In this document: one piece after another, positions 10,063 to 39,132 of the stretch
Layout of the letters: every line of letters begins with the position of its first letter
Position numbering within the stretch: the stretch's first letter is position 1
NCBI GenBank assembly: GCA_965208615.1
Contig: CBDBPB010000007.1
Coordinates: 128,001 to 192,000, forward strand
Length of the DNA stretch: 64,000 bases
Direction of reading: 5' to 3'
Source of the DNA: Spirochaetota bacterium
GTDB lineage: Bacteria; Spirochaetota; UBA6919; CBDBPB01
Program-made: the position numbers and the translations under genes
The notes under the pieces: model-generated
Told to the model about the DNA's origin: nothing
The model's input: only the letters and a program-made list of their open reading frames with translations
Database searches by the model: none

Positions 10063-10162
10063 CTATTAATAGTGGATTAATAAAAATAGCCTTATAAGTA
10101 TGTTGCTAATTTATTGTTATATATAACGGTTATATTTTTTGGTTTTAGATCATAATTTAATG

Positions 10163-20344: not shown

Positions 20345-21670
20345 CTTGGAACCTCATTAAAATCTTCAAACTTTAACTTAGGCCAACCTTTATCTTTATA
20401 ATAATCTATTATAATATTAGGCTTAGGATCAATAATCCCTTTATTAATATCAATATCCTTCCAAGGCTGACCAGTATCGCTATCATTATTAGGAATCTTT
20501 ATGGAACCAGTCTTAATATTAAAAACATTAGGAGCGTTTATAATAAAGCTTTCCATTTTTTCTTTAACAAAGACATCTCCTGGATTAAACTTATTAAAAT
20601 ATTGATCAAGTGCATCTTTAATATCTTTTTCAAGGGGTTTAGTTTTTCTATAGTATATAGTAAGTTCAATTTTAATTGGTTGTACTTCAGCAAGACTTAC
20701 AAAAGCTCTCCAGTTAGCTAATGGCTTATGCTCTTTAGCATTAATCTTATTTTCGATATCTTTAGGATTAATACTAGCATTACTAGAGTCCTTATATCCT
20801 CTTACAATAATCCCAACAGAACCTTCACCATGCATTCGTGGTACAATCTTTGCTTCTTTTACTAATTCTTGTGATTCAGCTTTAGCTTTAAACCATCCAA
20901 TAGATCCCTCTACTGAACCGCTAGCACTATGTATGATTCTTTGTCTAAAATCGTCATCGCTTTCTTTGTCTATACCTCCTCCGATAATGCTTTTATTTCT
21001 TACATAATCAAAATGTTGAACAGCGGTTGATATTTCTGTTATCATTGCCCCATTTATACTTATCCCCGCCTTTTAAGGCTATTACAGGCACTTCTACACG
21101 ATATACCTTTTTATCATCGTCATCAATGGTATTATCCTCATAAGGCTTGGTTTCTTCATTAATTTCAACATCATTTAGTGTTTTAAACTTCAAAGGCTCA
21201 TTGTTAATAGTACTTTTAGCAGCCACAATATTACCTTTCTTAAATGTATAAGTGATTTTAGGCTTAGTGGTAGCACCAACATACACCTTTCCAACGGCAT
21301 TAGTTAGGATTTTACGCTCTATACTATATCTTTGTGCATGTAGGTCAAGCCATTCGTCTTCAGCGGTCTGTACAAGCATTTGTTTTTTAAGCTCTTCAAT
21401 ACCCTTATCTAAGACTTCATACTGCATGAGGGCGAATATCTTTAACACTCTCATTATTTTACCTTGTGGTCTTAAGTTAGAGATACTTTTATCATCACTT
21501 TCATTATCAGGTTTAACAACATTATTATAAAAACGAGTAATTAAGTCCTCTAACAAGTCGTTAAACTCGGGTTCTTTTTCGATTATACTATCTAACAACA
21601 AGTTATAATCGCTTCGTGATAACTTCTTATCTTCGATAAGCTTTACTATTTCTTTTACACTTTCATTCAT
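20341..21670 (-). CDS. Baseplate J/gp47-like protein, split by a 1-nt frameshift near 21055
   Basis: QTAEDEWLDLHA in the first ORF; GGIDKESDDDFRQRI and PRMHGEGSV in the second; removing one A joins them (YNGAMITE). Confidence 0.8.
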
Positions 21671-22977: not shown

Positions 22978-24834
22978 TCAGCTTTCAGTTCTAATTTGTC
23001 GAGCATCTCTTCTAATTTGTTCAACATCTCTTCTAATACTTTCTTCGAGACAATTCTTAGCATCCCACCCCTCGTATGAGCCTATCCAGTTGGGGTTTTG
23101 CTTATATGCATTAATATTATGTAGATTATTAAAAAGTTGCCAACCCCATTCAATAGCTCTACCAGAATGGGGATTCATGCCATAATAAGGCTTATTTTCA
23201 CATTCATCATGAGCAGCATAATTAAAAATAGCCTTGACTAACGCTATATCTATACCGCCGGATAGTTGGAATGCAGCAGCCAATAATATAGTCTTCCTCA
23301 AATCTAAGGTTATACCTAAGGTTTCCCCACGTGTAGCCATATGCATACCAAAGAAAAAGTTTCCTAACTCTTTGACTGTCATATAATAGTTATAACAATG
23401 AACGCCGTTAAAGTGTTTACCAGAGCCTCCGCCGTATTCTTTTAAATTTTTAAAGTCATAGATTTGGTTAGTTCGAGAATTCATGATTGTTGTAACTATA
23501 TTATCACTAACTGCAGGACTAAGAAAACCGCTTATCTTATCGCTATAATCGTATATTTTTATAGTGCCTTTTGTATTACTTTCCCTATCCATAAAGGAGT
23601 CCCAAAATATAGTTTCACCTATATACATACCCGTATGATCATATACTTCATTAGAACCCTCATTCACAGCTATAACCTTACGATCCTTATCAATATAGGT
23701 GCCAGGTTTAGAGGTATCAACCTTTTTATTTTGTTCATCTTTTTTATCTTGCTCATCTTTTTTATCTTGGTCATCTTTTTTAGGCTGTGCTGGCTTTTTA
23801 TTTTGTGTTGCCTTAGTTAGGGCACTAGGTTTTTTAGGTATATAGCCGGATTTTTTACCTACTATAACCTCAGTACCTGGTTTTGGGAAATAATGGTTAA
23901 CTCCGTCTAGGGGTACGTTATAGCTATCTTCATCGAGTTTTTGATTTAGTAAGTCAGAGCCCTTTTGTTTTAGGATAACCTCGGATAATAAGTTAATTGT
24001 TGGATCTAGTCCTGTTTTAACGGATCCCACTAAACCTGATGAGCTTAGGTTTTTATATATTTTATTGGCAAGAAGAGGTAGTTCATTTTTGCTTAATCCT
24101 GGTTCAAAGTAGTTATAAGCGTTTTTACCGCTACCTTTTTTAGCAATATTGACTTTTCTTTTTTCATCTTTGCCAATGACGGATACTTCTAAATCCGATA
24201 TACCCTTATCCATCTTAAGATCGTTTGTATTGGTGGATAGGTCTATATTATTGGAACTTATAATTTGTCCCTTTTTCCCATACTTTTTAATACTAGGTTT
24301 TATAAAGCTGTACTTATTGCCGTAATAAAGTTGTTTGCCTATTAGAAACCATTCTCCAAAGGCTTTAGTGGCCAACCTATTTATTATATACCTAACTGAT
24401 CTGTTTGTAAAGGATAATACCTTATACTTATTTATCTTTTTCACATTGGAGGTAATAATACTAACGCCTTTAACCTCGGATATTATATTTTTAATAATTT
24501 CGTCATCACTCATATCCTTAAAGGTTTTGGTAATTTTGTTTTGAGCAAATTTATAACTATAGTCCTCGCATTCTATACGTATAGAGTCTTGGAGAATATT
24601 AACATCCGTAATTACTCCCTCAAAGACCTCTTCAATGTTATTGTTATGTCCAAGGGATACTATAATAGTATTTTCTTTTTCATAGGGATAGCTATCCCTT
24701 CCGCCTTTTTTAAAGAGTTCCACAACGCAGCTATTAGGACGGTTAAGCCTTGTATTTTGAACATGTAGAGATTTTATAATATCTTGTTCAACGCTGTTAT
24801 TAGCGATTTTTATTTTTGCTTTAAAGACTAACAT
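22978..24834 (-). CDS. Baseplate hub (gpD/gp44/VgrG-like) with C-terminal Ntox44-like toxin domain
   Basis: IIVSLG...VFEGVIT...IECED hub motif; low-complexity linker; ELGNFFFG...AAAFQ...AIEWGWQLF at the C-terminus. Confidence 0.7.
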   Translation of the reverse strand: MLVFKAKIKIANNSVEQDIIKSLHVQNTRLNRPNSCVVELFKKGGRDSYPYEKENTIIVSLGHNNNIEEVFEGVITDVNILQDSIRIECEDYSYKFAQNKITKTFKDMSDDEIIKNIISEVKGVSIITSNVKKINKYKVLSFTNRSVRYIINRLATKAFGEWFLIGKQLYYGNKYSFIKPSIKKYGKKGQIISSNNIDLSTNTNDLKMDKGISDLEVSVIGKDEKRKVNIAKKGSGKNAYNYFEPGLSKNELPLLANKIYKNLSSSGLVGSVKTGLDPTINLLSEVILKQKGSDLLNQKLDEDSYNVPLDGVNHYFPKPGTEVIVGKKSGYIPKKPSALTKATQNKKPAQPKKDDQDKKDEQDKKDEQNKKVDTSKPGTYIDKDRKVIAVNEGSNEVYDHTGMYIGETIFWDSFMDRESNTKGTIKIYDYSDKISGFLSPAVSDNIVTTIMNSRTNQIYDFKNLKEYGGGSGKHFNGVHCYNYYMTVKELGNFFFGMHMATRGETLGITLDLRKTILLAAAFQLSGGIDIALVKAIFNYAAHDECENKPYYGMNPHSGRAIEWGWQLFNNLHNINAYKQNPNWIGSYEGWDAKNCLEESIRRDVEQIRRDARQIRTES

Positions 24835-24837: not shown

Positions 24838-25842
24838 TTATATCTCTTTGTTTTTAGCAAGGGCGGGTAGTGTTATTATAATGCCCTCGATTAGTTTAAT
24901 GTAATTATTTGCTTTTCTAATTTTTTTAGCATGTCTTGTGTCATTATAATATGCGTTAGCTATGCTAAAATATGTATCGCCTTTTTTTACAACATATTCC
25001 TTGTCTTTCTTGGGGATTATTGGTATTTTAGCGGTTTTACCTGTATTACCAAGATCTTTAGCCTTTTTCATATCACCGTCTTGTATGGCCTTAAGGATTT
25101 TTTTTAATTCTGTTACCTTATTTTCTTCTAGTCCGAGTGTGTCTTTTGCAAATCCTAGAATTTCAGTAACGCCTTCAAAGCCTTTAACAGCCTTATTAAC
25201 GTATTTATTAAGTTCATCAACTTCTTCTTTGCTAGATGTTTTTCCTTGTAGGATAGAGAGTAATGGATGAGCTCCCATATCTTTATTAATTTTTAAGAAC
25301 TCTTTTTCTAAAGTATGATCTCCGAATACGTCAGCGGCTATTTTTGCAAAGTCATCGCCTTTTTTCAGTATCAGTTTTGAATATTTATTAGCTTTTTTTA
25401 TGCCGTTTATTACTTTTACAATTCCACCTATGGATTCGCTTAGGAATGAGGGAGTACTAGTCTTAGATTTATCTTCCACACACTCGATTCTCATGTCTCT
25501 TGCCGAGTCTATCCCCTCTACGGTGGATATATAATGATTTTCTATAATAACTTTTTTAATATCGTGATTTTCGGTTTCTATTGATACCATAGATAAAGAC
25601 TCTAGTTTTTTAGCCAGATCCCTTATCAATTTAATTTGTTTATTTAGGGATAGGTTATCTGTAGATATAAGACGTCCTGTAATGGTAACTTTAAAGTCGT
25701 TCCATCCTGTTTGACGTTTTACACCATTTTGAGTAGTTATTATTTTACCTCCGCCATGAACCTTAACATCGCATGGACAGGGGATGTCTACTCCACCAAG
25801 CTTAACTTTATTTTGAGGATCTATTTTATAATATTTACCCAT
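24838..25842 (-). CDS. Tail tube initiator-like protein with two LysM domains
   Basis: LKKGDDFAKIA and YVVKKGDTYFSIANAYY...IRKAN; RBS AAGGA before ATG 25842. Confidence 0.75.
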   Translation of the reverse strand: MGKYYKIDPQNKVKLGGVDIPCPCDVKVHGGGKIITTQNGVKRQTGWNDFKVTITGRLISTDNLSLNKQIKLIRDLAKKLESLSMVSIETENHDIKKVIIENHYISTVEGIDSARDMRIECVEDKSKTSTPSFLSESIGGIVKVINGIKKANKYSKLILKKGDDFAKIAADVFGDHTLEKEFLKINKDMGAHPLLSILQGKTSSKEEVDELNKYVNKAVKGFEGVTEILGFAKDTLGLEENKVTELKKILKAIQDGDMKKAKDLGNTGKTAKIPIIPKKDKEYVVKKGDTYFSIANAYYNDTRHAKKIRKANNYIKLIEGIIITLPALAKNKEI

Positions 25843-25881
25843 GGTGTTTTTCCTTTTATTTTGCAGGATTTGATGATAATA

Positions 25882-25961
25882 CATAAAAGCTAATGTAGAA
25901 AATTGATAAGACAAGCACACTTATGCTATATATGCTATATATGCTACCTTTCAGAAAAAGT
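25882..25961 (-). promoter_or_regulatory. Late promoter with 9-bp direct repeats, near copy of 22742-22825
   Basis: ataaaagctaatgtagaaa..tgataag.caag.acacttatgctatatatgctatatatgctacctttc is shared. Confidence 0.6.
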
Positions 25962-26070
25962 ACGAGTTTTTTTTTTAAGAAGATAATCTTCAAAATGACA
26001 AAATTTATCATTTTCGATTTTATAGTCTAAATGCGGTTCAGTTGATATATTGTAGGGGGGGGGGGGAGGG

Positions 26071-26949
26071 TTATTTTTTTAGTAGTTTTGTTTTATAGCG
26101 GTGAAATTTTATTAATGCTTTTTTTGAGTTTTGTTTCCAAAGTTTTAAATATTCGATCCATGTATAATGGGATTCGATTTCTGACAAAGTGGATCTGTTA
26201 TTTTCTTGAGCCTCCTTATTGAATATTGTATATAGCGATTTAACTCTATAGTATTCCTTAGGGTTTAACTCTTTAGATAGCATATCGTTAGGGATGATTT
26301 TTGATAATTTCCTGCCGTGATATTCGAATATAATTTTATAATAATCTGTTTCAGAAAGCATAGTAATTTTATCATCGAGAGCATCTATTAACATGTATCG
26401 GTAATCTGGATAAGTGATAAGATCATCCCATATTTTTCTATACTGAGTAGCAAGCTTTTTTGAGTGGGGTAGCATTTTATTTATTGTAGACTTATCAACA
26501 CTAATTTCTAGATTCTTTTCTAGTTTATGAGTAATACCAGCACCTAAGGGAGTAGTAAGACGGCCCCTAGTCCGCTCTAAATCTATGTTGCTTATTTTTG
26601 GCGTCTTAGATAACTCAGTAAGCTCATCTACACTTTCTATTATAGTACTAAAAGAGCTATAATATGATTTAAATGCTTTAGAGTTAAGAGATATTTTTTC
26701 CCCTTTAACTTTGCTTAAGCTATGGAGATAGTTATTAAACATATCACTCATAGCTACACCATAGTGAATATTAATAAGGTTGTTTTTAAGTTCATAAGCC
26801 AACAACTTTTCATTCATATAGCTATCAAAAATATTTTTATTTAACATAGCTATTATATCTTTATTTCCTTTGTAAGTCAGGTTGTATAAGATAGTTATAA
26901 CGCTTAATGCTAAAACAATTAGGAAGATAATGGATCGTTTTTTTTTCAT
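26071..26949 (-). CDS. Membrane-anchored paralogue of the unknown core domain
   Basis: N-terminal TM; HYGVAMSDMFNNYL, YRKIW and YYRVKSLY motifs shared with neighbours. Confidence 0.6.
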   Translation of the reverse strand: MKKKRSIIFLIVLALSVITILYNLTYKGNKDIIAMLNKNIFDSYMNEKLLAYELKNNLINIHYGVAMSDMFNNYLHSLSKVKGEKISLNSKAFKSYYSSFSTIIESVDELTELSKTPKISNIDLERTRGRLTTPLGAGITHKLEKNLEISVDKSTINKMLPHSKKLATQYRKIWDDLITYPDYRYMLIDALDDKITMLSETDYYKIIFEYHGRKLSKIIPNDMLSKELNPKEYYRVKSLYTIFNKEAQENNRSTLSEIESHYTWIEYLKLWKQNSKKALIKFHRYKTKLLKK

Positions 26950-27022
26950 TATGAACCCTCCAAAAAGTTATGCTGTAAAGTTAGCCCGTAAGGATAGGGG
27001 ATATCAACATTCACCTGCGATA

Positions 27023-27056
27023 AAAGTTAATATATAAAAATGTAGAGTCAAGGCTT
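27023..27056 (-). promoter_or_regulatory. Sigma70-like promoter, shared with 29641-29670
   Basis: TTGACT-CTACATTTTTATATAT-TAACTT on the minus strand. Confidence 0.5.
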
Positions 27057-27090
27057 ATTCTAGTTTTCAGGAAGGGTTAAGAAGTTTTTT

Positions 27091-28791
27091 TTATACATAC
27101 AATAGTTCTTTACTAAAACTACTATTAGGTATATAATCGTTATTGTTCTGGTTACGGATTTGATATGCCTGTTGATAAATCTCACTAATCCCCTCTTCAT
27201 TATTTGGGAAATGCTTAGCGAAGTTGTTAAGATCATTCTCAGTCAATCTATTACCATTATTATAAAAAGGCCTTATATCCTTTTTAATCTGCTTGGGTAG
27301 GCTGTCAGATAAAATCTTCTCTATATTAATTTTATTACTAGCCTTACTAAGAACAGCATTTATAATTCCGCCTTTGTTGGAGGCGTTATTAATCATGCCT
27401 CCAAGGTGGAGAAGCTTTCTCTCGCCGTTATTACCACTATGGCTAGTAGGATTAACTTTAACATTACTCCCTTTCAAAGAACTGATTCTATTATTCTTTC
27501 TCTTATCATAGCTATTTATATAACTATTTACTTCCTTTTCTATATCTTTATATTTATCTTCGATAATGTTATTATAGTAAGTCAATGAAAGTGATTTTGT
27601 ATCTAAAGCATTAGCCGCATATAGAATATCAGCTGTAGAAGCCCCTGTTTTAACTTCCAAATCGCCTAATGTATTTCTATACTCTATTTTTTCACTTAAA
27701 TAATCATAAAGATAATTATCATAGAGCTCTGCATATTTTTTTTTGTTAAGCTTTTTGACTGAATACTTTGGTACCTTTGCCTTTCTAAACTTATTAGCTA
27801 TATTTTTTATGACATCTGTCTCTTTAAATGTTTTTAATAATTTATTTCTATAACAGAAGAAGTCCATCATTTTATCTTGAGAAAACTTGGTAAAAATCCT
27901 AATTAACTTGCACATTCTCAAGCTATTACCAAAAAGCATTGAAGCTGTTGTAGCACGTCCGATAGATATCCTTGCCCTTGCTTTTCTATCAAGTATCATA
28001 TATAACGATCTAGCAAGATAGTATTTATCAAGATTTAAATTAGGCTTAAAATAAGGCTTAGGCAAATTTAGCCTATCATAAAGCCCTCCTTCTGCATCAT
28101 CAAGGTCATCATAATTATATTTTGTAAGAATCTCTTGCCATAACCTTCTATAAGCCTTTACAGTAAGCAATGACTCGCTAATGGCAGACTTATGTATTTT
28201 AATAGGGATATTAATATAATAACCTTTCTCATCCATATTTGATTTTAGTAAAGAATCAATGGAATAACCATACCCTTGAGCTTTTAAGTAATTATTAATA
28301 GCTTTACTAATAAGTGCATGTGCCCCAAAGTTAGTATCAGTACCAAAATCTTTATAATCTAAGTAATTTATCTGAGCTTTTGTCTTATCTAAACTATTAG
28401 AATATTTCTTAAATATCTTGACGTTAAACCTTTTTTCTTTTACTGAGTCATCATCACTTTCTATAGTCTCTAGATTAAGCAAATATTTATGAAACATATC
28501 ACTAATAAACATACCATAGTGGGTACCCATTATAGGAGTTCGTTTCCCCTTATCGAGTGCTTTAGTATGTTCATATATAGCGCCTATTGTTACTCCAATA
28601 AGAGCTGCATAAGGATTTGGAATTCTAGAAGTTGCTGCACTAGTTGCTAATGCTACTGCAATACTATCATAATCTACTCCTGCTTCATTTTTATCTTTAA
28701 GGATAGTACTTTTATTAATTGCCTCATTCTTAATTGCCTTCTTTAATAGATTCATATGGTGATAATTTTTTAAGATACTACTGTTACCCAT
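27091..28791 (-). CDS. Tape-measure-position protein, paralogue 2 (putative cargo/effector)
   Basis: Shares SILKNYHH N-terminus, hydrophobic hairpin, core domain and LTE.....GIS...YQ.AY C-terminus with 29699-31357. Confidence 0.55.
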   Translation of the reverse strand: MGNSSILKNYHHMNLLKKAIKNEAINKSTILKDKNEAGVDYDSIAVALATSAATSRIPNPYAALIGVTIGAIYEHTKALDKGKRTPIMGTHYGMFISDMFHKYLLNLETIESDDDSVKEKRFNVKIFKKYSNSLDKTKAQINYLDYKDFGTDTNFGAHALISKAINNYLKAQGYGYSIDSLLKSNMDEKGYYINIPIKIHKSAISESLLTVKAYRRLWQEILTKYNYDDLDDAEGGLYDRLNLPKPYFKPNLNLDKYYLARSLYMILDRKARARISIGRATTASMLFGNSLRMCKLIRIFTKFSQDKMMDFFCYRNKLLKTFKETDVIKNIANKFRKAKVPKYSVKKLNKKKYAELYDNYLYDYLSEKIEYRNTLGDLEVKTGASTADILYAANALDTKSLSLTYYNNIIEDKYKDIEKEVNSYINSYDKRKNNRISSLKGSNVKVNPTSHSGNNGERKLLHLGGMINNASNKGGIINAVLSKASNKINIEKILSDSLPKQIKKDIRPFYNNGNRLTENDLNNFAKHFPNNEEGISEIYQQAYQIRNQNNNDYIPNSSFSKELLYV

Positions 28792-28855
28792 AGTTATTAC
28801 CTCATATTTTTATTTTTGCCTTATAGGCTAATACTTTATCTTAATATAAAAAGTT

Positions 28856-29494
28856 CTATTTTATATTAGTCCTTTTTTCAAGAGAAAAAAGGTCTGTCTT
28901 GTCCTTAAGCTTGTATTCTTCATCATCAAGCTCATCATATTTATGCTTTTTAAGGCTTCTCCACAGCTTTATATAAGCCTTTACAGTAAGCAATGACTCG
29001 CTAATGGCATAATTATGTATTTCAATAGGAATATTAATATAATAACCTTTCTCATCCCACATATTTAATGTTAGTAAATAACCAATGGAATAACCATACC
29101 CTTGAGCTTTTAAGTAACTATCAATAGCTATATTAATAAGTGCATGTGCCCTAAAGTTAGTATCAGTACCAAAATCTTTATAATCTAAGTAATTTATCTG
29201 AGCTTTTGTCTTATCTAAACTATTAGAATATTTCTTAAATATCTTGACGTTAAACCTTTTTTCTTTTACTGAGTCATCATCACTTTCTATAGTCTCTAGA
29301 CTAAGCAAATATTTATGAAACTTATAGCTCTCTATCATACCATAGTAAGCACCATGATAAGCAATCTTTTTATATTCCTTTTCCTCATTGATTAGTGGAA
29401 GATTTATTATTATAACTCCAACAACCACTAAAAGAGTCACTAACCACTTATATCTAACCAAAAAACTCTTTAAACCATTAACTTGCTTTATCAT
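28856..29494 (-). CDS. Membrane-anchored partial copy of the 27091-28791 core domain
   Basis: ~345 bp nearly identical to 28150-28495; N-terminal TM; RBS AGGGAG. Confidence 0.65.
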   Translation of the reverse strand: MIKQVNGLKSFLVRYKWLVTLLVVVGVIIINLPLINEEKEYKKIAYHGAYYGMIESYKFHKYLLSLETIESDDDSVKEKRFNVKIFKKYSNSLDKTKAQINYLDYKDFGTDTNFRAHALINIAIDSYLKAQGYGYSIGYLLTLNMWDEKGYYINIPIEIHNYAISESLLTVKAYIKLWRSLKKHKYDELDDEEYKLKDKTDLFSLEKRTNIK

Positions 29495-29640
29495 GTATGC
29501 TCCCTATACCAATAAGTCGCTTTTAAAGTGGCAAGGCGACGAGTCGCTTTAAAGGGTGACTGATCACTAAGCTACGTAGCCAGCTACTCTAATGTGACCT
29601 GGCTGTGTGTACACCTTGTGGGTATCATCAAGCCGTCTAT

Positions 29641-29695
29641 AAAATTAATATATAAAAATGTAGAGTCAAGCCTGGTTATGCTATATATGCTACTT
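29641..29695 (-). promoter_or_regulatory. Promoter with two 9-bp repeats
   Basis: TAGCATATATAGCATAA upstream of TTGACT-N16-TAATTT. Confidence 0.5.
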
Positions 29696-29698
29696 TTC

Positions 29699-31357
29699 TT
29701 ACGCTGTATGAGCTAATACTTCTTTAACATTATGTCCCTGAGGAACACTAGAATTAGTTATTTCGTTATAGGCCTGATACAGCAGTTGAGAAATCCCATT
29801 AAGCTTATCTTTATTATCTGGATGACATCTAACTAGCTGGTTAATATTATCCTCAGTCAATATATTATCATTATTTTCAGTATTAGCATGAGAGTCATTA
29901 CTAAAAAGATTTTCCAAGTTATCATTATAGCTAGCTTTGACTACTCTTTCAGTGTTGGCTACTCCTACAGCATTTCTGAGTACCGGATTAAGAGATTTTC
30001 TCCTAAGAGATCTTTTCCTAATAAGATTTGCCAACTTGTTATAGTTATATGCCAAGTTCTTATAATTAGCGGTATTAGCTACTCCAGCTATCTTGTCATT
30101 CTTAGAACCAATTCCTTTAGTGTTGTTAGTATATTCCACATTTGTCTTTGTAAATAGATTACTAATTCTGTTATGATTATCATTTACAAAAAGTCTACTC
30201 TCATCGTTATCAAATGCGGCAGCAAGTATGTCAGAATGACTAACTCCTGTTTCTTTTATTAGGCTATTTATATTTAGGTTATATAAAGAAGCGTACATCT
30301 CTCTAGATTTCACATCACTAGTTAGGTACGGATCTGTAGCATATCTGTATTGTTTTTTTATATGTCTAAGAAAGTTCGCGTATTTACTCTGTAATATTCC
30401 TTTTCTATATCGGTAGAATTCTTCCATTGCAGCTTGACCACTAAACCTATCCCATTCACGCCCTTCTGCTGCTCTTGAGTTAATCTTTAAAATTGTTGGA
30501 TAACTAATATAATGATTAATTGCCTTAGCTTCAGCTTGCTTATCAAGTACCATATATAGTGATCTAGCAGCATAATATTCATTAAGATCAAGGTCAGTAT
30601 CTGGAGTATAAGGTATATTCGTGCCTATCTTAGCATCAAGTAATAGTCCTAATAAACCTAAGTTATTTTTATTATTAGTAATGGAGCTCCACATATTTCT
30701 ATAACCAGTAGCAAAGTTTTTTGACTTACCCTTAACTTTTTTATATATAGCAAAAGGAATAGTAAAAGATTCCTTGTCTTTTAGTACAGTATCAATTGTT
30801 ACTGAATTATTAGAACTATTTCCCAAGTACTCATTAATTATGTCCACAATAGCTCCAGAACTTCCGAATACAGACCCAAGTCCATGTTTACCAATTAGAT
30901 TTTTAGGAATATTACTTACGGCATCTTGTATAGGAGTCCAAGACTTCATATATGAATCAAATGTTTTACTATTAATAACAACTGGCTTATTTTTAGTACC
31001 AATTGATTCTAAGTAATTATCAAACAGCTCACTAATAACCATACCATGATGAGCACCTAATACACTGTAGCTTTTTTTAGTTCGTATATTACGATAGATA
31101 GCTAAACTGCTCAGTAATAACCCAATGATTGTTCCAACCGCGGCTGGTGGAACAGAACTAATACCAGCAATTAATATTGTTAATAAAATATTATTAATCA
31201 GTTTCCTCTGATCTTCATTCTTTTCACTTTTAAAAATACTTTTAACATTTTTATCCTTTTTAATTGCTCTATCTAATAGGTTTTCATGGTGATAGTTTTT
31301 TAGAATACTGGGGGCATTATTCTTAGAAAGATTAGCTATACTACTTGTTTTTCCCAT
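29699..31357 (-). CDS. Tape-measure-position protein, paralogue 1
   Basis: Directly downstream of the G/GT chaperone; 552 aa; hydrophobic segment near the N-terminus. Confidence 0.55.
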   Translation of the reverse strand: MGKTSSIANLSKNNAPSILKNYHHENLLDRAIKKDKNVKSIFKSEKNEDQRKLINNILLTILIAGISSVPPAAVGTIIGLLLSSLAIYRNIRTKKSYSVLGAHHGMVISELFDNYLESIGTKNKPVVINSKTFDSYMKSWTPIQDAVSNIPKNLIGKHGLGSVFGSSGAIVDIINEYLGNSSNNSVTIDTVLKDKESFTIPFAIYKKVKGKSKNFATGYRNMWSSITNNKNNLGLLGLLLDAKIGTNIPYTPDTDLDLNEYYAARSLYMVLDKQAEAKAINHYISYPTILKINSRAAEGREWDRFSGQAAMEEFYRYRKGILQSKYANFLRHIKKQYRYATDPYLTSDVKSREMYASLYNLNINSLIKETGVSHSDILAAAFDNDESRLFVNDNHNRISNLFTKTNVEYTNNTKGIGSKNDKIAGVANTANYKNLAYNYNKLANLIRKRSLRRKSLNPVLRNAVGVANTERVVKASYNDNLENLFSNDSHANTENNDNILTEDNINQLVRCHPDNKDKLNGISQLLYQAYNEITNSSVPQGHNVKEVLAHTA

Positions 31358-31987
31358 TATAAAATTCCTCTAAAAACTTGATATCAGCTATAAGTTTGTA
31401 ATAGTCATCCGATAGCGGTAGGATGGTGGATTCGCTAATATTTTTATTAGGGAACCACCTACCGGCAAGCAAGTATACAGAAGGGTCATATCCCACTTCT
31501 ATAGAGCCAAGTTTTATATACTTACCTTTATTGAGTTCTGTTACCCGCTTGTCTATTAATTCTTTCCCGCTTCGGCTATTCCAACCCCCTCTTTGGTTAG
31601 GAGTATATTACCCAAACTGAGCAGGAAGGTTGCTGGGACTTCGTGATTATCAAAACTTATATCATTAATTAGTTTTAAAGTTCCGCCCTCACTGTTACCA
31701 GCAGCCATGAGCCTACAGATTTGTATATTTTGATCTAACCCATCCTTTGACGGTTTATTAATCACTCTCATAAGCCTTTTAACATCGGCTGAGTGGAATA
31801 TTCCACTAAATTCAAAGTCGGGTTCATGCACTAAATATACCCGTTTATTTTTTTTAATGACAATATCAATCTCAACCTTATGATTGTTAAATGCTTTAAC
31901 ATCCTCGTTATTGTCCAAGAAGTCTTTTGGATCAACTCCGTCTTTAATTTTATCTCTGTGTCTGTGCAAGCTAATGCAGTATATCAT
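31341..31987 (-). CDS. Tail assembly chaperone G (31556-31987) and GT fusion via programmed -1 frameshift
   Basis: G GGA AAG slippery site at 31562-31568 just before the stop; -1 frame open for ~73 codons to TAG at 31341. Confidence 0.8.
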
Positions 31988-32024: not shown

Positions 32025-32432
32025 TTATTTACTGGATATTTTAACATCACCGAGTACAGTAAAGTCAATACTAGTTTTGTCATCAGCTGTTTTACCAAGA
32101 TTATATCCGTCATTGCTAAAGCGAGCTTGTTTTATCTCGACTTTTCTACCTTGATCGTCTGTAGCAGTGATATCACAAATTAGATCAGACAGTGTACCGT
32201 CAGTTGATCCTAGTTCTTCAGCAATAATAAGTTTTTCACTTTGTTCTAAAGATATTTTACCCTTATTACTTTCCACAGCACTCGCAGTACTAACCACTTT
32301 ACCATTTCTAAAAGTGTTAGCCTCTTTTAGAGTTTTTGTCCACTCAAGACTTTCGATAGTTACAGTCTGTTTTCCGTTTATGAGTACATCGGTTTTATCT
32401 AAATCAAACTTTTTATATATTTGTTCAGCCAT
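32025..32432 (-). CDS. Tail tube protein
   Basis: 135 aa, beta-rich, directly after the sheath; RBS AGGAGG. Confidence 0.7.
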   Translation of the reverse strand: MAEQIYKKFDLDKTDVLINGKQTVTIESLEWTKTLKEANTFRNGKVVSTASAVESNKGKISLEQSEKLIIAEELGSTDGTLSDLICDITATDDQGRKVEIKQARFSNDGYNLGKTADDKTSIDFTVLGDVKISSK

Positions 32433-32443: not shown

Positions 32444-33616
32444 TTAACTAAGTTTTGGCATTGCATACATTGCATCAAATGTCATACTCTCAATATGACT
32501 ATTTTCATAAAGCTTAAAAGTTCCCTCTAGCTTACCCTTTATGATAAGTTCAGCCAGGTCAGCCACTGTCGTATTAGGGTTGTCAATAGCAGGTATATCA
32601 ATTTCATAACCATTAATCTCATCCCTACCCATCATACCGTCTAATGCAGTCTCCATTTTAAGCTTTAGATTTAGGATACCAGCTTTAGAACCAGCTACTA
32701 ACTTTGAACTTCCCTGATTAGACCTCAAAAATGGGAATACTGCATTATGTATTACTCTTAATGCCTTATCCATAACCCGTCCTGAGCTAATCTTTCTGAA
32801 ATCGCTTTTTGGCGGAGCCTTTAATAAACCAATACCAAAAAATGGATATTTACCAGCGGCTTCTCCATCTTCATAATAAAGACTGTTAAAGTTTTTATCA
32901 GTAAGAGCACTGTGATTATCTCTTATAACGCTGTCCCAGTCTTCAATACTAATTACGTCGTCTTGAGGGAATGCACCTGTCCATCCAATACTCTCTTGTA
33001 CCTTAGCCCTGCTTAGCGTTGCAAGAGCATGATTAGCAACACTAGTAGTCTCATTTAGTGTTTTTGACTTAACATCTTGATAGAATAAGGCTATATTCTT
33101 ACTATCAAGGCCGGCAAGATCTTTTAGCTTATCAATATTATCTTTACTCTCCACTTTATCCACACTAGCAATAGCCCTAACCCAACGCTTAGATTGACGC
33201 ATTTCCTTTATTTTAGTGTCTAGGGTTTTAAAAAAACTAGTGTCTATCTTAGGAATACTGGAATCAATAATAGGGTCTACAATGTGTATTATCCTAACTT
33301 CCTTAGCACTTTCATCATCTTTAACGGCTTTCAATGCATTAATTAAACTACCAGTATTTAGTTCATTACCCTCTAACCTAACACAATATAAGGTTGACCC
33401 CCCTAATGCAAAGTGCAATAAACATGATTTGTGTAGTGAACTATCTTTTCCATAAAGCTTTTCTGCATAGGATGCAGAAGTAACTTTTTCAACTTTACTA
33501 GTAGTAGTGTCTCCATTGTTTGCAGTACCAATCTTAGCAAAGATATTATCAGCACCTGCCACTAATGAATTACGATCACTTTCTTTAACTACAAATTTAA
33601 TTTTACTATCACTCAT
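32444..33616 (-). CDS. Tail sheath protein (DUF2586-like)
   Basis: ~390 aa; VQESIGW and SDFRKISSGRVMDKALR sheath motifs; RBS AGGAGG before ATG 33616. Confidence 0.8.
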   Translation of the reverse strand: MSDSKIKFVVKESDRNSLVAGADNIFAKIGTANNGDTTTSKVEKVTSASYAEKLYGKDSSLHKSCLLHFALGGSTLYCVRLEGNELNTGSLINALKAVKDDESAKEVRIIHIVDPIIDSSIPKIDTSFFKTLDTKIKEMRQSKRWVRAIASVDKVESKDNIDKLKDLAGLDSKNIALFYQDVKSKTLNETTSVANHALATLSRAKVQESIGWTGAFPQDDVISIEDWDSVIRDNHSALTDKNFNSLYYEDGEAAGKYPFFGIGLLKAPPKSDFRKISSGRVMDKALRVIHNAVFPFLRSNQGSSKLVAGSKAGILNLKLKMETALDGMMGRDEINGYEIDIPAIDNPNTTVADLAELIIKGKLEGTFKLYENSHIESMTFDAMYAMPKLS

Positions 33617-33738
33617 ACTTACCTCCTTTTGTTGAGTCATAATTAAACTTTAGATTTCTTTTCATTTTTCCTCCTGTCCACAAAATGGACTATCTATTAT
33701 TATTTTTTTAAAACGAACATTATCTGTTTTAAAACCTT

Positions 33739-34389
33739 TTACGAACTATCTTTCTTTTCATCTTTCAGGACTATTTCAAGTTTTTCCACAAGATGTATTG
33801 TCTCTTTTTCGTATATCCCTGTTTTGATAGCAAAATCCAGGATAATTTCTGTATGGCTTTTTGGAACTTCATTAGCCTTATCAGGTCTTTTTGTGTAGTG
33901 GTGATAATATCCGTGGAAGTCCCTATTACGGGTTATCGATATTATATCATAGTACCTAACTGTGCCGCTTTCTCTTTTGTGATAGGTTTTATTGTCGTGT
34001 TTTCTTTCGTATCTTAGGGATGGCGTTATATTTTCAGTAATCCTGCCTATGGTATTAGGTTCACCATATCGGTTATATAGAGCGCTGAAAAGCTTGTATA
34101 GAATATCGTCGTAGTCCTTATCTTTATTTATAATCAGCCTCAGCCTTAGGTTGTATAGAACTTCTAAAACTTGCTTTTCTACAAACTGATATTTTTTATC
34201 ATCGTCAATATCTTCAATACTTATGGGTCTAGTTTTTTGTTTAACTTTGCCATAAACGTTTAGGAACTCGGCCAAAGGACTTTTGAGATTATCATTAGAC
34301 CAATTATCCTGTTCGTGATAAAAAACATTTGCGTCTGTAAAGCCTATTTTAGTTAGCTTTTCTTTGATTAACTTTTTAACAGCCTGCAT
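33739..34389 (-). CDS. Putative tail terminator/completion protein
   Basis: First gene of the tail operon, upstream of the sheath; RBS AGGAG. Confidence 0.45.
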   Translation of the reverse strand: MQAVKKLIKEKLTKIGFTDANVFYHEQDNWSNDNLKSPLAEFLNVYGKVKQKTRPISIEDIDDDKKYQFVEKQVLEVLYNLRLRLIINKDKDYDDILYKLFSALYNRYGEPNTIGRITENITPSLRYERKHDNKTYHKRESGTVRYYDIISITRNRDFHGYYHHYTKRPDKANEVPKSHTEIILDFAIKTGIYEKETIHLVEKLEIVLKDEKKDSS

Positions 34390-34411: not shown

Positions 34412-34487
34412 AGTTAATACCTAAACTCTATTAGGCAAGGACAGTTATGCTATATATGCTATTTGTGCTACCTATCTGAAAAAAGTT
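34412..34487 (-). promoter_or_regulatory. Late promoter with 9-bp repeats for the sheath/tube operon
   Basis: TAGCACAAA-TAGCATATA-TAGCATAA, then TTGCCT-N16-TAACTT. Confidence 0.6.
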
Positions 34488-34703: not shown

Positions 34704-34943
34704 ATGGAAAAGCTTAAAAATGAGATAACTGGTGCTGAATCAAGGCTGAGAGTGGAGTTAAAAGCAGTCGAAAATAAAATATTAGCTGTGGAAAATAAGC
34801 TTGACAGTAAAATATCAGATGTCGAAAATAGACTTGATAATAAGATTAGTAAACTGGAAGGCATGATGAAGGTTGTTATAACGATAACATCGGCTACAGC
34901 AATAGGAATTGTCATGCTAATGCTTAAGGATATTTTTAAATAG
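34704..34943 (+). CDS. Bdr/DUF1640-like coiled-coil membrane protein, copy 1 (5'-truncated)
   Basis: Lacks the MITDDLRQE start and RBS; otherwise matches the other copies. Confidence 0.55.
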   Translation: MEKLKNEITGAESRLRVELKAVENKILAVENKLDSKISDVENRLDNKISKLEGMMKVVITITSATAIGIVMLMLKDIFK

Positions 34944-34980
34944 CCCGCTTGACAGTGCTATACCTCAAAAGGAGAGAAAT

Positions 34981-35301
34981 ATGATAACGGATGACCTAAG
35001 ACAGGAGATAAAAAGAGAAGTAACTAGTCAAATCCAGCAAGTTGAGATTACTGACGTTAAAATGGAAAAGCTTAAAAATGAGATAACTGGTGCTGAATCA
35101 AGGCTGAGAGTGGAGTTAAAAGCAGTCGAAAATAAAATATTAGCTGTGGAAAATAAGCTTGACAGTAAAATATCAGACGTGGAAAATAGACTTGATAATA
35201 AGATTAGTAAGCTGGAAGGCATGATGAAGGTTATTATAACGATAACATCGGCTACAGCAATAGGAATTGTCATGCTAATGCTTAAGGATATTTTTAAATA
35301 G
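34981..35301 (+). CDS. Bdr/DUF1640-like protein, copy 2
   Basis: KISDVENKLD repeats, C-terminal TM, RBS AAGGAG. Confidence 0.8.
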   Translation: MITDDLRQEIKREVTSQIQQVEITDVKMEKLKNEITGAESRLRVELKAVENKILAVENKLDSKISDVENRLDNKISKLEGMMKVIITITSATAIGIVMLMLKDIFK

Positions 35302-35338
35302 CCCGCTTGACAGTGCTATACCTCAAAAGGAGAGAAAT

Positions 35339-35659
35339 ATGATAACGGATGACCTAAGACAGGAGATAAAAAGAGAAGTAACTAGTCAAATCCAGCAAGT
35401 TGAGATTACTGACGTTAAAATGGAAAAGCTTAAAAATGAGATAACTGGTGCTGAATCAAGGCTGAGAGTGGAGTTAAAAGCAGTCGAAAATAAAATATTA
35501 GCTGTGGAAAATAAGCTTGACAGTAAAATATCAGATGTCGAAAATAGACTTGATAATAAGATTAGTAAACTGGAAGGCATGATGAAGGTTGTTATAACGA
35601 TAACATCGGCTACAGCAATAGGAATTGTCATGTTAATGCTTAAGGATATTTTTAAATAG
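35339..35659 (+). CDS. Bdr/DUF1640-like protein, copy 3
   Basis: As copy 2. Confidence 0.8.
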   Translation: MITDDLRQEIKREVTSQIQQVEITDVKMEKLKNEITGAESRLRVELKAVENKILAVENKLDSKISDVENRLDNKISKLEGMMKVVITITSATAIGIVMLMLKDIFK

Positions 35660-35696
35660 CCCGTTTAGCAGTGCTATACCTCAAAAGGAGAGAAAT

Positions 35697-35963
35697 ATGA
35701 TAACGGATGACCTAAGACAGGAGATAAAAAGAGAAGTAACTAGTCAAATCCAGCAAGTTGAGATTACTGACGTTAAAATGGAAAAGCTTAAAAACGAGAT
35801 AACTGGTGCTGAATCGAGGCTGAGGCTGGAGTTAAAAGAAGTGGAAAATAGACTTGATAATAAGATTAGTAAACTGGAAGGTATGATGAAGGTTATTATA
35901 ACGATAACATCGGCTACAGCAATAGGAATTGTCATGTTAATGCTTAAGGATATTTTTAAATAG
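35697..35963 (+). CDS. Bdr/DUF1640-like protein, copy 4 (shortest full copy, 88 aa)
   Basis: As copy 2, fewer repeats. Confidence 0.8.
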   Translation: MITDDLRQEIKREVTSQIQQVEITDVKMEKLKNEITGAESRLRLELKEVENRLDNKISKLEGMMKVIITITSATAIGIVMLMLKDIFK

Positions 35964-36000
35964 CCCGCTTAGCAGTGCTATACCTCAAAAGGAGAGAAAT

Positions 36001-36366
36001 ATGATAACGGATGACCTAAGACAGGAGATAAAAAGAGAAGTAACTAGTCAAATCCAGCAGTCTGAGATTACTGACGTTAAAATGGAAAAGCTTAAAAATG
36101 AGATAACTGGTGCTGAATCAAGGCTGAGAGTGGAGTTAAAAGCAGTCGAAAATAGACTTGATAATAAAATATCAGACGTGGAAAATAGACTTGACAGTAA
36201 AATATCAGACGTGGAAAATAAGCTTGATAATAAAATATCAGACGTGGAAAACAGGCTTGATAATAAGATTAGTAAGCTGGAAGGTATGATGAAGGTTATT
36301 ATAACGATAACATCGGCTACAGCAATAGGAATTGTCATGTTAATGCTTAAGGATATTTTTAAATAG
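36001..36366 (+). CDS. Bdr/DUF1640-like protein, copy 5 (121 aa)
   Basis: As copy 2, more repeats. Confidence 0.8.
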   Translation: MITDDLRQEIKREVTSQIQQSEITDVKMEKLKNEITGAESRLRVELKAVENRLDNKISDVENRLDSKISDVENKLDNKISDVENRLDNKISKLEGMMKVIITITSATAIGIVMLMLKDIFK

Positions 36367-36403
36367 CCCGCTTAGCAGTGCTATACCTCAAAAGGAGAGA
36401 AAT

Positions 36404-36757
36404 ATGATAACGGATGACCTAAGACAGGAGATAAAAAGAGAAGTAACTAGTCAAATCCAGCAAGTTGAGATTACTGACGTTAAAATGGAAAAGCTTAAAA
36501 ATGAGATAACTGGTGCTGAATCAAGGCTGAGAGTGGAGTTAAAAGCAGTCGAAAATAAAATATTAGCTGTGGAAAATAGACTTGACAGTAAAATATCAGA
36601 CGTGGAAAATAAGCTTGATAGTAAAATATCAGATGTCGAAAATAGACTTGATAATAAGATTAGTAAACTGGAAGGTATGATGAAGGTTATTATAACGATA
36701 ACATCGGCTACAGCAATAGGAATTGTCATGTTAATGCTTAAGGATATTTTTAAATAG
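36404..36757 (+). CDS. Bdr/DUF1640-like protein, copy 6 (117 aa)
   Basis: As copy 2. Confidence 0.8.
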   Translation: MITDDLRQEIKREVTSQIQQVEITDVKMEKLKNEITGAESRLRVELKAVENKILAVENRLDSKISDVENKLDSKISDVENRLDNKISKLEGMMKVIITITSATAIGIVMLMLKDIFK

Positions 36758-36794
36758 CCCGCTTGACAGTGCTATACCTCAAAAGGAGAGAAAT

Positions 36795-38919: not shown

Positions 38920-39132
38920 CTAGCCATTATTGCTGTCCCTATTATCTAAATAGCTGTTTAATCCGTTGTGAGCCACATTACCCACGATATAACTAGCGCC
39001 AATGACCTCCACAACATCCACCCAGTTATCGCTATTTATTATATTATTCATAAGCAGTATGGTAGCGGATATTATAATTATAATAGTTACAATGAACTTT
39101 CTGCTTATGATAGAGCCAATTTTTTTATTCAT
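38920..39132 (-). CDS. Putative holin
   Basis: 70 aa, two TMs, SRKF motif, adjacent to the endolysin. Confidence 0.65.
   Translation of the reverse strand: MNKKIGSIISRKFIVTIIIIISATILLMNNIINSDNWVDVVEVIGASYIVGNVAHNGLNSYLDNRDSNNG

What the first reader, a model, noticed from the sequence alone, without database searches (positions are those of the whole stretch)
26071..31357. Tape-measure slot holds four paralogues of one unknown domain in a long/short/long/short pattern
Two long proteins (552 and 566 aa) share N- and C-terminal motifs and a hydrophobic hairpin. Two short ones (212 and 292 aa) have an N-terminal membrane anchor. All four share a core motif (HHGMVISELFDNYL / YYGMIESYKFHKYL / HYGMFISDMFHKYL / HYGVAMSDMFNNYL, then Y..[LMI]W). 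The short genes sit behind a shared ~30-bp TTGACT promoter. Inference: the long forms are tube-lumen tape-measure/effector proteins, and the short membrane-tethered forms are decoy-type immunity proteins homologous to the effector itself, which would be an unusual immunity logic.
Basis: partly seen in the sequence, partly recalled or inferred. Interest (0 to 1): 0.82.

Follow-up and report, generated by a model that had tools for sequence, protein, structure and literature searches.

The report
Orphan paralogues replace tail tape measure
In a headless phage-tail gene cluster, the usual tape-measure gene is replaced by four copies of a protein family seen nowhere else: the two long copies probably act as the tail's ruler, and the role of the two short membrane-anchored copies is still open.

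Summary
Four minus-strand ORFs (552, 212, 566 and 292 aa) are paralogues, and they lie exactly where a tape-measure protein (TMP) gene belongs. A complete Mu-like prophage on the same contig has the same gene order, at 37-81% identity, and carries a canonical 919-aa TMP (PF10145) in that slot. The window's cluster has no head genes and looks like a tailocin. The family is an orphan. A profile search of 1.84 billion proteins found only the four genes and one fragment, and that fragment lies at a decaying second locus in the same genome. The long forms share N- and C-terminal motifs, nearly the same length and a helical-bundle core. They probably serve as non-canonical tape measures, but this rests on position, not homology. 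The short forms keep one membrane helix and the core. The 212-aa gene carries a recent gene-conversion tract from the 566-aa gene, with dN/dS about 1. The "shared promoter" is real but not special to the short genes: the same module precedes three structural tail operons. Decoy immunity stays an untested minority reading. No RNA data exist, and the complex prediction could not be run.

The parts
33739..34389 (-). First gene of the tail module (216 aa, no family). It is preceded by the promoter module at 34446-34471.
32444..33640 (-). Tail sheath (398 aa, DUF2586 / phrog_907). 67% identical to the sister prophage's sheath.
32025..32432 (-). Tail tube candidate (135 aa). 81% identical to the 136-aa ORF at the same position in the prophage.
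31556..31987 (-). Tail assembly chaperone candidate (143 aa). 76% identical to the prophage's 143-aa ORF.
31341..31555 (-). Alternate-frame extension ORF of the chaperone (...GYDPSVYLLAGRWFPN...). It is conserved with the prophage's extension ORF. Its stop lies 14 nt inside the 552-aa gene.
29699..31357 (-). Long form 1 (552 aa): N-terminal motif, hydrophobic hairpin at 57-87, helical-bundle core at about 100-230 and 310-380, helical N-rich C-terminal half, conserved C-terminal block. Prime tape-measure candidate.
29641..29693 (-). Promoter-like module upstream of the 212-aa gene: two TAGCATA repeats, then CTTGACT-N17-ATTAATTTTAT.
28856..29494 (-). Short form 1 (212 aa): membrane helix at 17-35 plus core block 1 only. 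The core is a recent copy of the 566-aa gene's core.
28961..29353 (-). Gene-conversion or duplication tract in the 212-aa gene. It is 92-93% identical in DNA to 28138-28527 in the 566-aa gene.
   Evidence: families D1, D3
27091..28791 (-). Long form 2 (566 aa): same N- and C-terminal motifs as 552, 31% identical overall. The hairpin region is only weakly hydrophobic.
27023..27055 (-). Core promoter-like copy upstream of the 292-aa gene. It lacks the tandem TAGCATA repeats.
26071..26949 (-). Short form 2 (292 aa): signal-anchor helix at 7-25 plus core blocks 1 and 2. It ends just after the F.RY+..LL motif.
26055..26070 (-). CCCT + C12 tract directly after the stop of the 292-aa gene. It is the only C/G run of 11 or more in the genome.
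25886..25952 (-). Full promoter-like module (three TAGCATA repeats plus core) upstream of the LysM gene.
24838..25920 (-). LysM / baseplate-hub-associated protein. The likely start is the ATG at 25842. 37% identical to the prophage's LysM protein.
22978..24834 (-). Baseplate hub (618 aa). Residues 1-288 match the prophage's 326-aa hub at 39% identity. An orphan extension of about 330 aa follows.

Best explanation
The window holds a headless, prophage-derived contractile-tail element that resembles a tailocin. It comprises a repressor, a lysis cassette and a complete Mu-like tail module, and it sits next to a tRNA cluster. The canonical tape-measure gene of this module has been replaced by a fast-evolving gene family specific to this lineage.

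Long forms. The two full-length members (552 aa, directly behind the chaperone, and 566 aa) most likely act as the tape-measure or tube-lumen protein.
- A conserved N-terminal motif and a conserved C-terminal block would make the contacts at the two ends of the tube. This is inferred.
- A hydrophobic segment followed by a helical-bundle core would be the membrane-active module released on contraction. This is inferred by analogy with the TM plus helical-bundle module of T4 gp29.
- The near-equal lengths would set a tail of roughly 83-85 nm. This is inferred from about 0.15 nm per residue.

Short forms. These arose from long forms by duplication, loss of the N-terminal motif and the C-terminal half, and, for 212, recent gene conversion from 566. 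The sequence shows this directly. They retain only one membrane helix and the bundle core, are translatable, and sit behind copies of the cluster's own promoter module. Their function is not established. They are either membrane-inserted partners of the long forms' core (protective decoy, assembly or lysis aid) or duplicates drifting towards loss.
For: Synteny with a sister prophage.
- Every tail gene from the sheath to the fibres has a counterpart in the same order in a complete Mu-like prophage on the same contig, at 37-81% identity.
- Exceptions: the four paralogues, the 216-aa first gene and two small fibre-region ORFs of 300 and 189 aa.
- The prophage has one 919-aa ORF with PF10145 (E 3e-24) in the slot.

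Other clusters. In 2 of 3 more distant sheath clusters examined, the slot also holds a PF10145 protein, of 706 and 827 aa.

Chaperone. The chaperone and its alternate-frame extension are conserved, and the extension ends at the start of the 552-aa gene.

Headless element.
- None of the 50 window ORFs scanned with Pfam matches a head or packaging family. Most of the 25 ORFs scanned with PHROGs are among those 50; on them the only head-and-packaging-category hit is phrog_32822, a lesser hit of the two tail-fibre ORFs.
- An M15 endolysin-like gene, small membrane ORFs and an XRE repressor lie upstream.

Integrity. All tail ORFs are open. The one apparent split, in baseplate J, disappears with a 1-nt difference present in an independent contig.

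Long forms.
- Shared N- and C-terminal motifs, lengths of 552 vs 566 aa at 31% identity, and net charge of +20 and +28.
- The AF2 model is almost wholly helical. The core at 100-230 has pLDDT 66-86.

Native origin. Codon usage and GC are host-like, with a CAI-like index of 0.68-0.76 against 0.59-0.71 for the other tail genes.

History of the short forms. A tract of 92-93% DNA identity joins 212 and 566, and block identities are given.

Second locus. Outside the tail cluster, the long copy is broken into 104-aa and 127-aa remnants and a 292-like copy has decayed. This fits a function tied to the tail.
Against: - No sequence or profile similarity to the sister TMP or to any TMP family.
- Fold searches give only generic helical bundles: Z <= 9.2, below the level that means anything for helical proteins, and no Foldseek E <= 0.001.
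- The AF2 model is poor overall, with mean pLDDT 47.8.
- Two candidate rulers in one cluster are unexplained. My literature search found no precedent.
- The 566-aa form lacks a convincing hydrophobic segment.
- The prophage's TMP could in principle be used in trans.
- dN/dS of about 1 between 212 and 566 shows no purifying selection on at least one of them.
- The genome rests on low-depth data, 3-5x in the one run that holds it.
- There are no expression data and no relatives for comparison.
Confidence: 0.5

Rival explanations
1. Decoy immunity. The long forms are tape-measure proteins whose membrane module kills target cells. The short forms are membrane-tethered copies of that module. They bind incoming long forms in the periplasm or membrane and block pore formation, which protects sister cells.
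For: - The short forms keep exactly the membrane helix and the bundle core. Their N-in/C-out signal-anchor topology would put the core in the periplasm.
- Gene conversion keeps the 212 core matched to 566.
- The 292-aa gene's promoter copy lacks the upstream repeats and so might be constitutive.
- At the second locus, an intact anchored 272-aa gene sits beside broken long-form remnants. This resembles the orphan-immunity arrays of polymorphic toxin systems; the comparison itself is from recall.
- Precedent that a membrane protein blocks a TMP's TM plus bundle module: T4 Imm (10.64898/2026.03.06.709160).
Against: - There is no test of binding.
- The 212-aa gene sits behind the same promoter module as the structural operons. 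That suits co-expression in dying producer cells rather than standing immunity.
- dN/dS of about 1 is equally well explained by decay.
- The 272-aa protein shares only its leader with the family: hhalign finds nothing, and BLASTP gives E 0.004, mostly from the N-terminus.
- A review states that no immunity protein is known for R-type pyocins (PMC11871291, passages read), so the prior is low.
Confidence: 0.12
2. Defective remnant. The tail cluster no longer makes particles. The TMP gene was lost, and the four genes are an unrelated lineage-specific family of membrane-associated proteins. They settled in the gap and are duplicating and decaying there and at the second locus.
For: - No similarity to TMPs.
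- The family also occurs, in decay, at a locus flanked by housekeeping ORFs (a long multi-pass membrane protein and others) rather than tail genes.
- dN/dS of about 1.
- Very fast divergence, with dN of 0.74-0.83 between older pairs.
Against: - All roughly 20 tail ORFs are open, and the only split is probably an assembly indel.
- The slot is replaced precisely between the chaperone extension and the LysM promoter.
- The long forms keep conserved termini and equal length.
- The four genes carry the cluster's own promoter module.
- The copy outside the cluster is the one that decayed.
Confidence: 0.2
3. Lysis or release module. The short forms are TMP-derived membrane modules expressed from inside the producer. 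They permeabilise its membrane, acting like a holin or helping tail export, together with the tail genes.
For: - The 212-aa gene has the same promoter module as the structural operons.
- One membrane helix plus a helical domain is a simple membrane-active design.
- The T4 TMP fragment with TM plus bundle goes to the membrane when expressed in cells (10.64898/2026.03.06.709160, section 9).
Against: - A separate lysis cassette with an endolysin-like gene and small membrane ORFs already lies upstream.
- There is no similarity to any holin or spanin family.
- No functional data exist.
Confidence: 0.06
4. Cargo pairs with the TMP supplied in trans. The sister prophage's 919-aa TMP serves both tails. 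The window's four genes are loaded effector proteins (long) with cognate partners (short).
For: - The chaperone and its extension are 76% identical to the prophage's, so they might still handle the prophage TMP.
- The two clusters share a genome.
Against: - The LysM and hub proteins, which dock the TMP's C-terminus, are only 37-39% identical.
- The sheath differs by a roughly 100-aa insert (398 vs 502 aa).
- No effector or toxin domain was detected.
- It would require co-induction of two elements.
Confidence: 0.07

Closest known systems
Canonical tail tape-measure proteins (Pfam PF10145 PhageMin_Tail), such as the 919-aa TMP of the sister Mu-like prophage in the same genome
   Same: - Same gene position: after sheath, tube, chaperone and its frameshift extension, and before LysM and hub.
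- Long, basic and predicted helical.
- Hydrophobic segment(s).
- Conserved ends.
   Different: - No detectable sequence, profile or fold similarity.
- About 40% shorter.
- Two full-length paralogues instead of one gene.
- Accompanied by truncated membrane-anchored paralogues.
- A compact helical-bundle core follows the hydrophobic segment.
T4 gp29 TM plus helical-bundle module and the superinfection-exclusion protein Imm (bioRxiv 10.64898/2026.03.06.709160)
   Same: - A TMP with a membrane segment followed by a globular helical bundle.
- A small membrane protein of the same element acts on that module.
- The short forms here resemble the authors' truncated TMP-S construct in design.
   Different: - Imm is not homologous to gp29, whereas here the candidate partner is a paralogue of the TMP candidate.
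- No homology between this family and gp29 or Imm was tested or shown.
- T4 is a phage, not a headless tail.
R-type tailocins (R-pyocins, diffocins and the like)
   Same: - A contractile tail module without head genes.
- An adjacent lysis cassette and repressor.
- Chromosomal location next to tRNA genes.
   Different: - Known R-tailocins carry a canonical TMP (recalled).
- They have no known immunity protein (PMC11871291).
- Killing activity is not shown here.
- This element derives from a Mu-like lineage (DUF2586 sheath).
Polymorphic toxin loci with orphan toxin-tip and immunity modules (CDI, Rhs). Comparison from recall.
   Same: - Alternating long and short genes.
- Recombination tracts between copies.
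- A second locus with a C-terminal fragment of the long gene beside short genes.
   Different: - No toxin domain.
- No conserved N-terminal delivery region with variable tips; the whole protein diverges.
- The long and short genes are homologous to each other.

Membership tests
Tape-measure protein (functional class) | The gene lies between the tail chaperone (with its frameshift extension) and the baseplate hub genes. | tested here: met
   Synteny with the sister prophage. The extension ORF ends at the 552-aa gene's start, and the LysM and hub genes follow.
Tape-measure protein (functional class) | Sequence membership in a known TMP family (PF10145 or another Pfam, PHROG or NCBIfam TMP model). 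| tested here: not met
   None of the four proteins hits Pfam, PHROGs or NCBIfam. hhalign and BLASTP against the 919-aa TMP give nothing.
Tape-measure protein (functional class) | A long, mostly alpha-helical protein with hydrophobic, membrane-active segment(s). | tested here: inconclusive
   The AF2 model is helical, but mean pLDDT is only 47.8. 552 has a hairpin at 57-87; 566 has no segment at KD >= 1.6.
Tape-measure protein (functional class) | Protein length sets tail length, and the protein sits in the tube lumen of the particle. | not testable with these tools
   Needs particles, electron microscopy, proteomics and length mutants.
R-type tailocin | A contractile tail module with no capsid, portal or terminase genes in the element. 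| tested here: met
   Sheath, baseplate J, hub, collar and fibre hits are present. None of the 50 ORFs scanned with Pfam has a head or packaging hit; the single PHROG head-and-packaging-category hit (phrog_32822) is a lesser hit of the two tail-fibre ORFs. Housekeeping genes flank both sides.
R-type tailocin | Own regulator and lysis genes. | tested here: inconclusive
   An XRE repressor-like ORF (40613-41041), an M15 endolysin-like ORF (39129-39590) and small membrane ORFs are present. Their function is not shown.
R-type tailocin | Particles are released and kill related strains. | not testable with these tools
   Needs induction and killing assays.
Bacteriocin-type immunity protein (for the short forms) | Binds and neutralises the cognate killing protein. 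| not tested
Bacteriocin-type immunity protein (for the short forms) | Expressed in non-producing cells and protects them. | not testable with these tools
   No RNA run is listed. The promoter layout is ambiguous.
Mu-like tail module | DUF2586-type sheath and the gene order sheath, tube, chaperone, TMP, LysM/hub, spike, gp25-like, J. | tested here: met
   PF10758 at E 1.4e-23. The order matches the sister prophage, which also has portal/MuF-like and capsid-region ORFs.

The most novel reading that the evidence does not exclude
The long/short pairs are polymorphic 'warhead and shield' cassettes of a tailocin.
- The tape measure itself is the membrane-killing effector.
- Its truncated, membrane-tethered paralogues are dominant-negative decoys that protect kin.
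- Gene conversion keeps shield and warhead matched.
- An orphan shield with toxin remnants sits at a second locus.
This would be the first immunity system for a contractile tailocin, and an immunity protein homologous to its own toxin.
Probability: 0.12. Interest if true: 0.85.

Novelty: new variant of a known kind. Interest (0 to 1): 0.5.

Why it matters
Tape-measure proteins are thought to be indispensable and are usually easy to recognise. Here a complete and apparently intact contractile-tail module has swapped its canonical TMP for an orphan family, while a sister prophage with the canonical gene sits in the same genome as a built-in control.

If the long forms do measure the tail, the ruler function can be taken over by an unrelated protein. 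If the short forms interact with them, this would open the question of self-protection against tailocins. No immunity protein is known for R-type pyocins (PMC11871291).

If the cluster is dead, it is an ordinary decaying prophage remnant.

Tried and rejected
Searches for relatives, all empty apart from the genome itself.
- Word-based search of 5.8 billion proteins with 552 and with the C-terminus of 566.
- Exhaustive profile search of 1.84 billion representatives. It returned 5 hits: the four genes and P0005, which proved to lie in the same genome.
- 60 and then 400 genomes of the phylum.
- Phage records.
- Metagenome and genome contig scans with the C-terminal alignment.
- ESM Atlas, twice: best score 0.77, and no usable hit.

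Family libraries. Pfam, PHROGs and NCBIfam gave no hit for the four genes.

Structure.
- Single-sequence AF2 of the 292-aa protein was useless, at pLDDT 40.
- The AF2 model of 552 built on the four-sequence alignment was searched against BFVD, PDB Foldseek and the VIA wide library. Only generic helical bundles came back.

RNA and regulation.
- Rfam found only tRNAs in the window.
- The generic sigma-70 and terminator scan showed no enrichment: 53 sites found against 50 expected.
- The fold of the 212-aa gene's 5' leader is not significant, z -1.5.

Expression. No RNA holder is listed for this stretch.

Read laying. Runs X2 and X3 gave only short spurious pieces or traces of the same organism, so they say nothing about strain variation.

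Complex prediction. The 566 core with the 212 core was never accepted because the queue was full, so long/short binding remains untested.

Hub extension. The hub's C-terminal extension has no PDB sequence relative (best E 0.023) and no database relative.

Literature. The search for clusters with two tape-measure genes gave no true precedent. The two phage papers that matched used the phrase in another sense. Supplementary files were not consulted.

C4 272-aa protein. I considered counting it as a fifth family member. I rejected this because only its leader and first 27 residues match.
Full report
WHAT IS THERE

The finding's four ORFs are real and lie at the stated coordinates on the minus strand: 29699-31357 (552 aa), 28856-29494 (212 aa), 27091-28791 (566 aa) and 26071-26949 (292 aa). 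In a genome of 31% GC, open frames of these lengths have chance probabilities of 4e-8 to 1.5e-20. All four starts have a GGAG-type ribosome-binding site.

The four proteins are paralogues. Pairwise tblastn against the whole genome gives:
- 552 vs 566: E 4e-33.
- 566 vs 212: E 1e-64 to 1e-69, 75% identity over 162 residues.
- 552 vs 292: E 5e-7.
- 566 vs 292: E about 1e-5.
- 212 reaches 552 and 292 only through 566.

The four-way alignment has 19 invariant columns. The long forms also share an N-terminal motif and a C-terminal block.

Hydropathy confirms single strong N-terminal membrane helices in 212 (residues 17-35) and 292 (residues 7-25), and a hairpin in 552 (residues 57-87). The matching region of 566 does not reach the threshold, so the 'hairpin' is only half confirmed.

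An independent short-read assembly of the one public run that holds the stretch matches the window over most of the region. It breaks only at the internal repeat. Depth is only 3-5x.

THE SLOT

Pfam and PHROGs show the surrounding minus-strand genes to be a contractile-tail module:
- a DUF2586 sheath, then a 135-aa ORF and a 143-aa ORF;
- the four paralogues;
- a LysM protein, hub, spike-like protein and a 136-aa ORF in the gp25 position (no family hit; 65% identical to the prophage ORF there);
- baseplate J, then collar, fibre and BNR-propeller proteins down to 11527.

None of the 50 window ORFs scanned with Pfam matches a head or packaging family. The only PHROG hit in the head-and-packaging category, phrog_32822, is a lesser hit of the two tail-fibre ORFs. 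The flanks are housekeeping genes and a tRNA cluster. Upstream lie an M15 endolysin-like ORF, small membrane ORFs and an XRE repressor. The element therefore has the layout of an R-type tailocin.

The decisive control came from the same genome. A sheath search found a second copy 290 kb away on the same contig. That locus is a complete Mu-like prophage with the same tail gene order. The window's proteins match it as follows:

| Protein | Identity to prophage |
|---|---|
| sheath | 67% |
| tube | 81% |
| chaperone | 76% |
| LysM | 37% |
| hub (N-terminal part) | 39% |
| spike | 52% |
| gp25-like | 65% |
| J halves | 52% / 47% |
| next baseplate protein | 68% |
| fibres | 55-73% |

Between chaperone and LysM the prophage has one 919-aa ORF with PF10145 (E 3e-24) and many hydrophobic segments. 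This is a textbook TMP.

The prophage also has an alternate-frame ORF that extends the chaperone and ends at the TMP start. The window has the homologous extension, and it ends 14 nt inside the 552-aa gene.

In 2 of 3 more distant sheath clusters examined, the slot likewise holds a PF10145 protein. The third has only small ORFs without hits.

'Tape-measure slot' is therefore correct. The canonical gene has been replaced exactly between the chaperone extension and the LysM gene.

THE FAMILY IS AN ORPHAN

- Pfam, PHROGs and NCBIfam give no hit.
- There is no match to the 919-aa TMP by hhalign or BLASTP.
- No relatives appear in 5.8 billion clustered proteins, in phage records, in 60 and 400 genomes of the phylum, or in contig collections.
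- The exhaustive profile search of 1.84 billion representatives returned the four genes plus one 127-aa protein.

That 127-aa protein lies on another contig of the same genome. The organism is the only genome of its family and genus in the collection, so isolation explains part of the orphan status.

Codon usage and GC of the four genes are host-like. They are not a fresh import.

HISTORY

Block-wise identities are 24-37% for all pairs except 566/212, which share 78% in core block 1. That pair share about 390 nt at 92-93% DNA identity. This is a recent duplication or gene-conversion tract.

Over the 157 shared codons dS is 0.141 and dN is 0.142, so omega is 1.0 (bootstrap 0.55-2.25). In the 115 most similar codons there are 3 synonymous and 15 non-synonymous changes. 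Strong purifying selection is excluded. Neutral drift of one copy and diversifying selection both fit.

The short forms look like long forms that lost the N-terminal motif, one hairpin helix and the C-terminal half. 292 keeps core blocks 1 and 2, and 212 keeps block 1 only.

The second locus, on contig C4, carries the following:
- an intact 272-aa anchored protein that shares only the 5' leader and the first 27 residues with 292;
- two broken remnants (104 and 127 aa, in different frames) of the C-terminal half of a long form;
- a copy of the core promoter;
- a decayed 292-like gene.

Outside the tail cluster, then, the long form has not been maintained.

PROMOTERS

It is the core of a larger module, two or three TAGCATA repeats at 9-bp spacing followed by CTTG.CT-N17-ATTA.CTTTTAT. 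This module also precedes the first tail gene, the LysM gene and the spike gene.

The exact repeat occurs only at these four places in the genome. More diverged versions precede two housekeeping operons elsewhere on the contig.

The 292-aa gene's copy and the C4 copy have the core but only one degenerate repeat unit.

That these are promoters is inferred. The generic scan is uninformative and no RNA data exist. If they are promoters, the cluster is cut into five transcription units. The 212-aa and 566-aa genes are then co-regulated with structural genes, and 292 may be regulated differently.

STRUCTURE

AF2 on the four-sequence alignment gives a nearly all-helical model with mean pLDDT 47.8. 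Confidence is moderate only in the core: residues 100-230 at pLDDT 66-86, and 310-380 at 60-73.

Fold searches give only generic up-down helical bundles (best Z 9.2, below what is meaningful for helical proteins) and no significant Foldseek hit in the PDB or BFVD.

The design, a hydrophobic segment followed by a helical bundle, recalls the TM plus helical-bundle module of the T4 tape measure. That module goes to the membrane, dimerises and is bound by the exclusion protein Imm (10.64898/2026.03.06.709160; abstract and section 9 read). This is an analogy, not a tested relationship.

READING

A contractile tail needs a ruler (established knowledge of T4, P2, Mu and R-pyocins; recalled). The cluster appears intact. 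Its one split gene, baseplate J, reads through as 442 aa when a base that an independent contig lacks is left out.

The only candidates in the cluster are the long forms. 552 sits where translation from the chaperone extension ends.

I therefore put 0.5 on the composite reading: a tailocin-like element whose ruler is a non-canonical orphan protein, with short forms as truncated derivatives of its membrane module.

The rivals and their weights are:

| Reading | Weight |
|---|---|
| Dead remnant carrying an unrelated family | 0.2 |
| Decoy immunity | 0.12 |
| Cargo pairs, with the prophage's TMP used in trans | 0.07 |
| Lysis aid | 0.06 |

A review states that R-pyocins have no known immunity proteins (PMC11871291, passages read). 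The decoy idea would therefore be new, but nothing here tests it.

VERDICT

The finding is a new variant of a known kind. Interest is moderate, limited by the lack of relatives and expression data and by the low sequencing depth.

Noticed in passing
window 26055-26070 (minus strand): A CCCT + C12 tract lies directly after the stop of the 292-aa gene and about 100 nt upstream of the LysM promoter module. It is the only C/G homopolymer of 11 or more in the 2.46-Mb genome, and it has the same length in an independent contig. It could be a slipped-strand switch for the downstream baseplate operon. Unexplained.
   Followed up: partly
window 34704-37193 (+ strand): Seven tandem paralogous genes (79, 106, 106, 88, 121, 117 and 132 aa) lie between the tail module and the lysis cassette. 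Each has a variable number of 11-residue coiled-coil repeats (VENKLDSKISD-like) and a C-terminal membrane anchor.
   Followed up: no
window 20341-21670 (minus strand), around 21053: Baseplate J is split into 220-aa and 234-aa ORFs that overlap by 38 nt. An independent contig of run X1 lacks one base at 21053, and leaving that base out gives one 442-aa frame. This is probably an assembly indel or population variant, not a dead gene.
   Followed up: yes
window 22978-24834 (minus strand), residues about 290-618: The hub protein carries an extra C-terminal part of about 330 aa that the prophage's 326-aa hub lacks: a K/D/E/Q-rich linker followed by a domain. It has no Pfam, PDB or database relative. 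It may be a hub-borne payload.
   Followed up: partly
L012 (G000:C4:550000-569999), 9300-12050, minus strand: This is the second locus of the family. It holds an intact 272-aa anchored protein with the 292-type leader, broken 104-aa and 127-aa remnants of a long form's C-terminal half, a core promoter copy and a decayed 292-like gene. Neighbouring ORFs look like housekeeping genes, including a long multi-pass membrane protein.
   Followed up: yes
L025 (G000:C7:440001-460000), + strand: A complete Mu-like prophage on the same contig. It has portal/MuF-like and capsid-region ORFs, a 502-aa sheath, a canonical 919-aa TMP with repeated KHWDK..AFF..LW units, LysM, hub, a single 409-aa J protein and a BNR-repeat fibre.
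   Followed up: yes
G000:C7:38705-38760 and C7:5666-5728 (outside the window): Diverged copies of the TAGCA-repeat promoter module lie upstream of housekeeping ORFs. One ORF begins LKIHEYQAKEIF and looks like a succinyl-CoA ligase beta subunit (that label is from recall). This suggests the tail cluster uses a host-type regulatory element.
   Followed up: partly
L034 (G210:C28:132000-144000), 2463-4411: A distant sheath cluster in another family of the phylum has no large ORF in the TMP slot. It has only 260-, 152- and 252-aa ORFs without Pfam hits. This may be another non-canonical or very short ruler.
   Followed up: no
window 13551-16136 and 18544-19440 (minus strand): Fibre-region proteins carry many BNR/propeller-like repeats (DUF6242, PSII_BNR). 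They are shared with the prophage's 544-aa fibre, and the repeat number differs strongly between the two.
   Followed up: no
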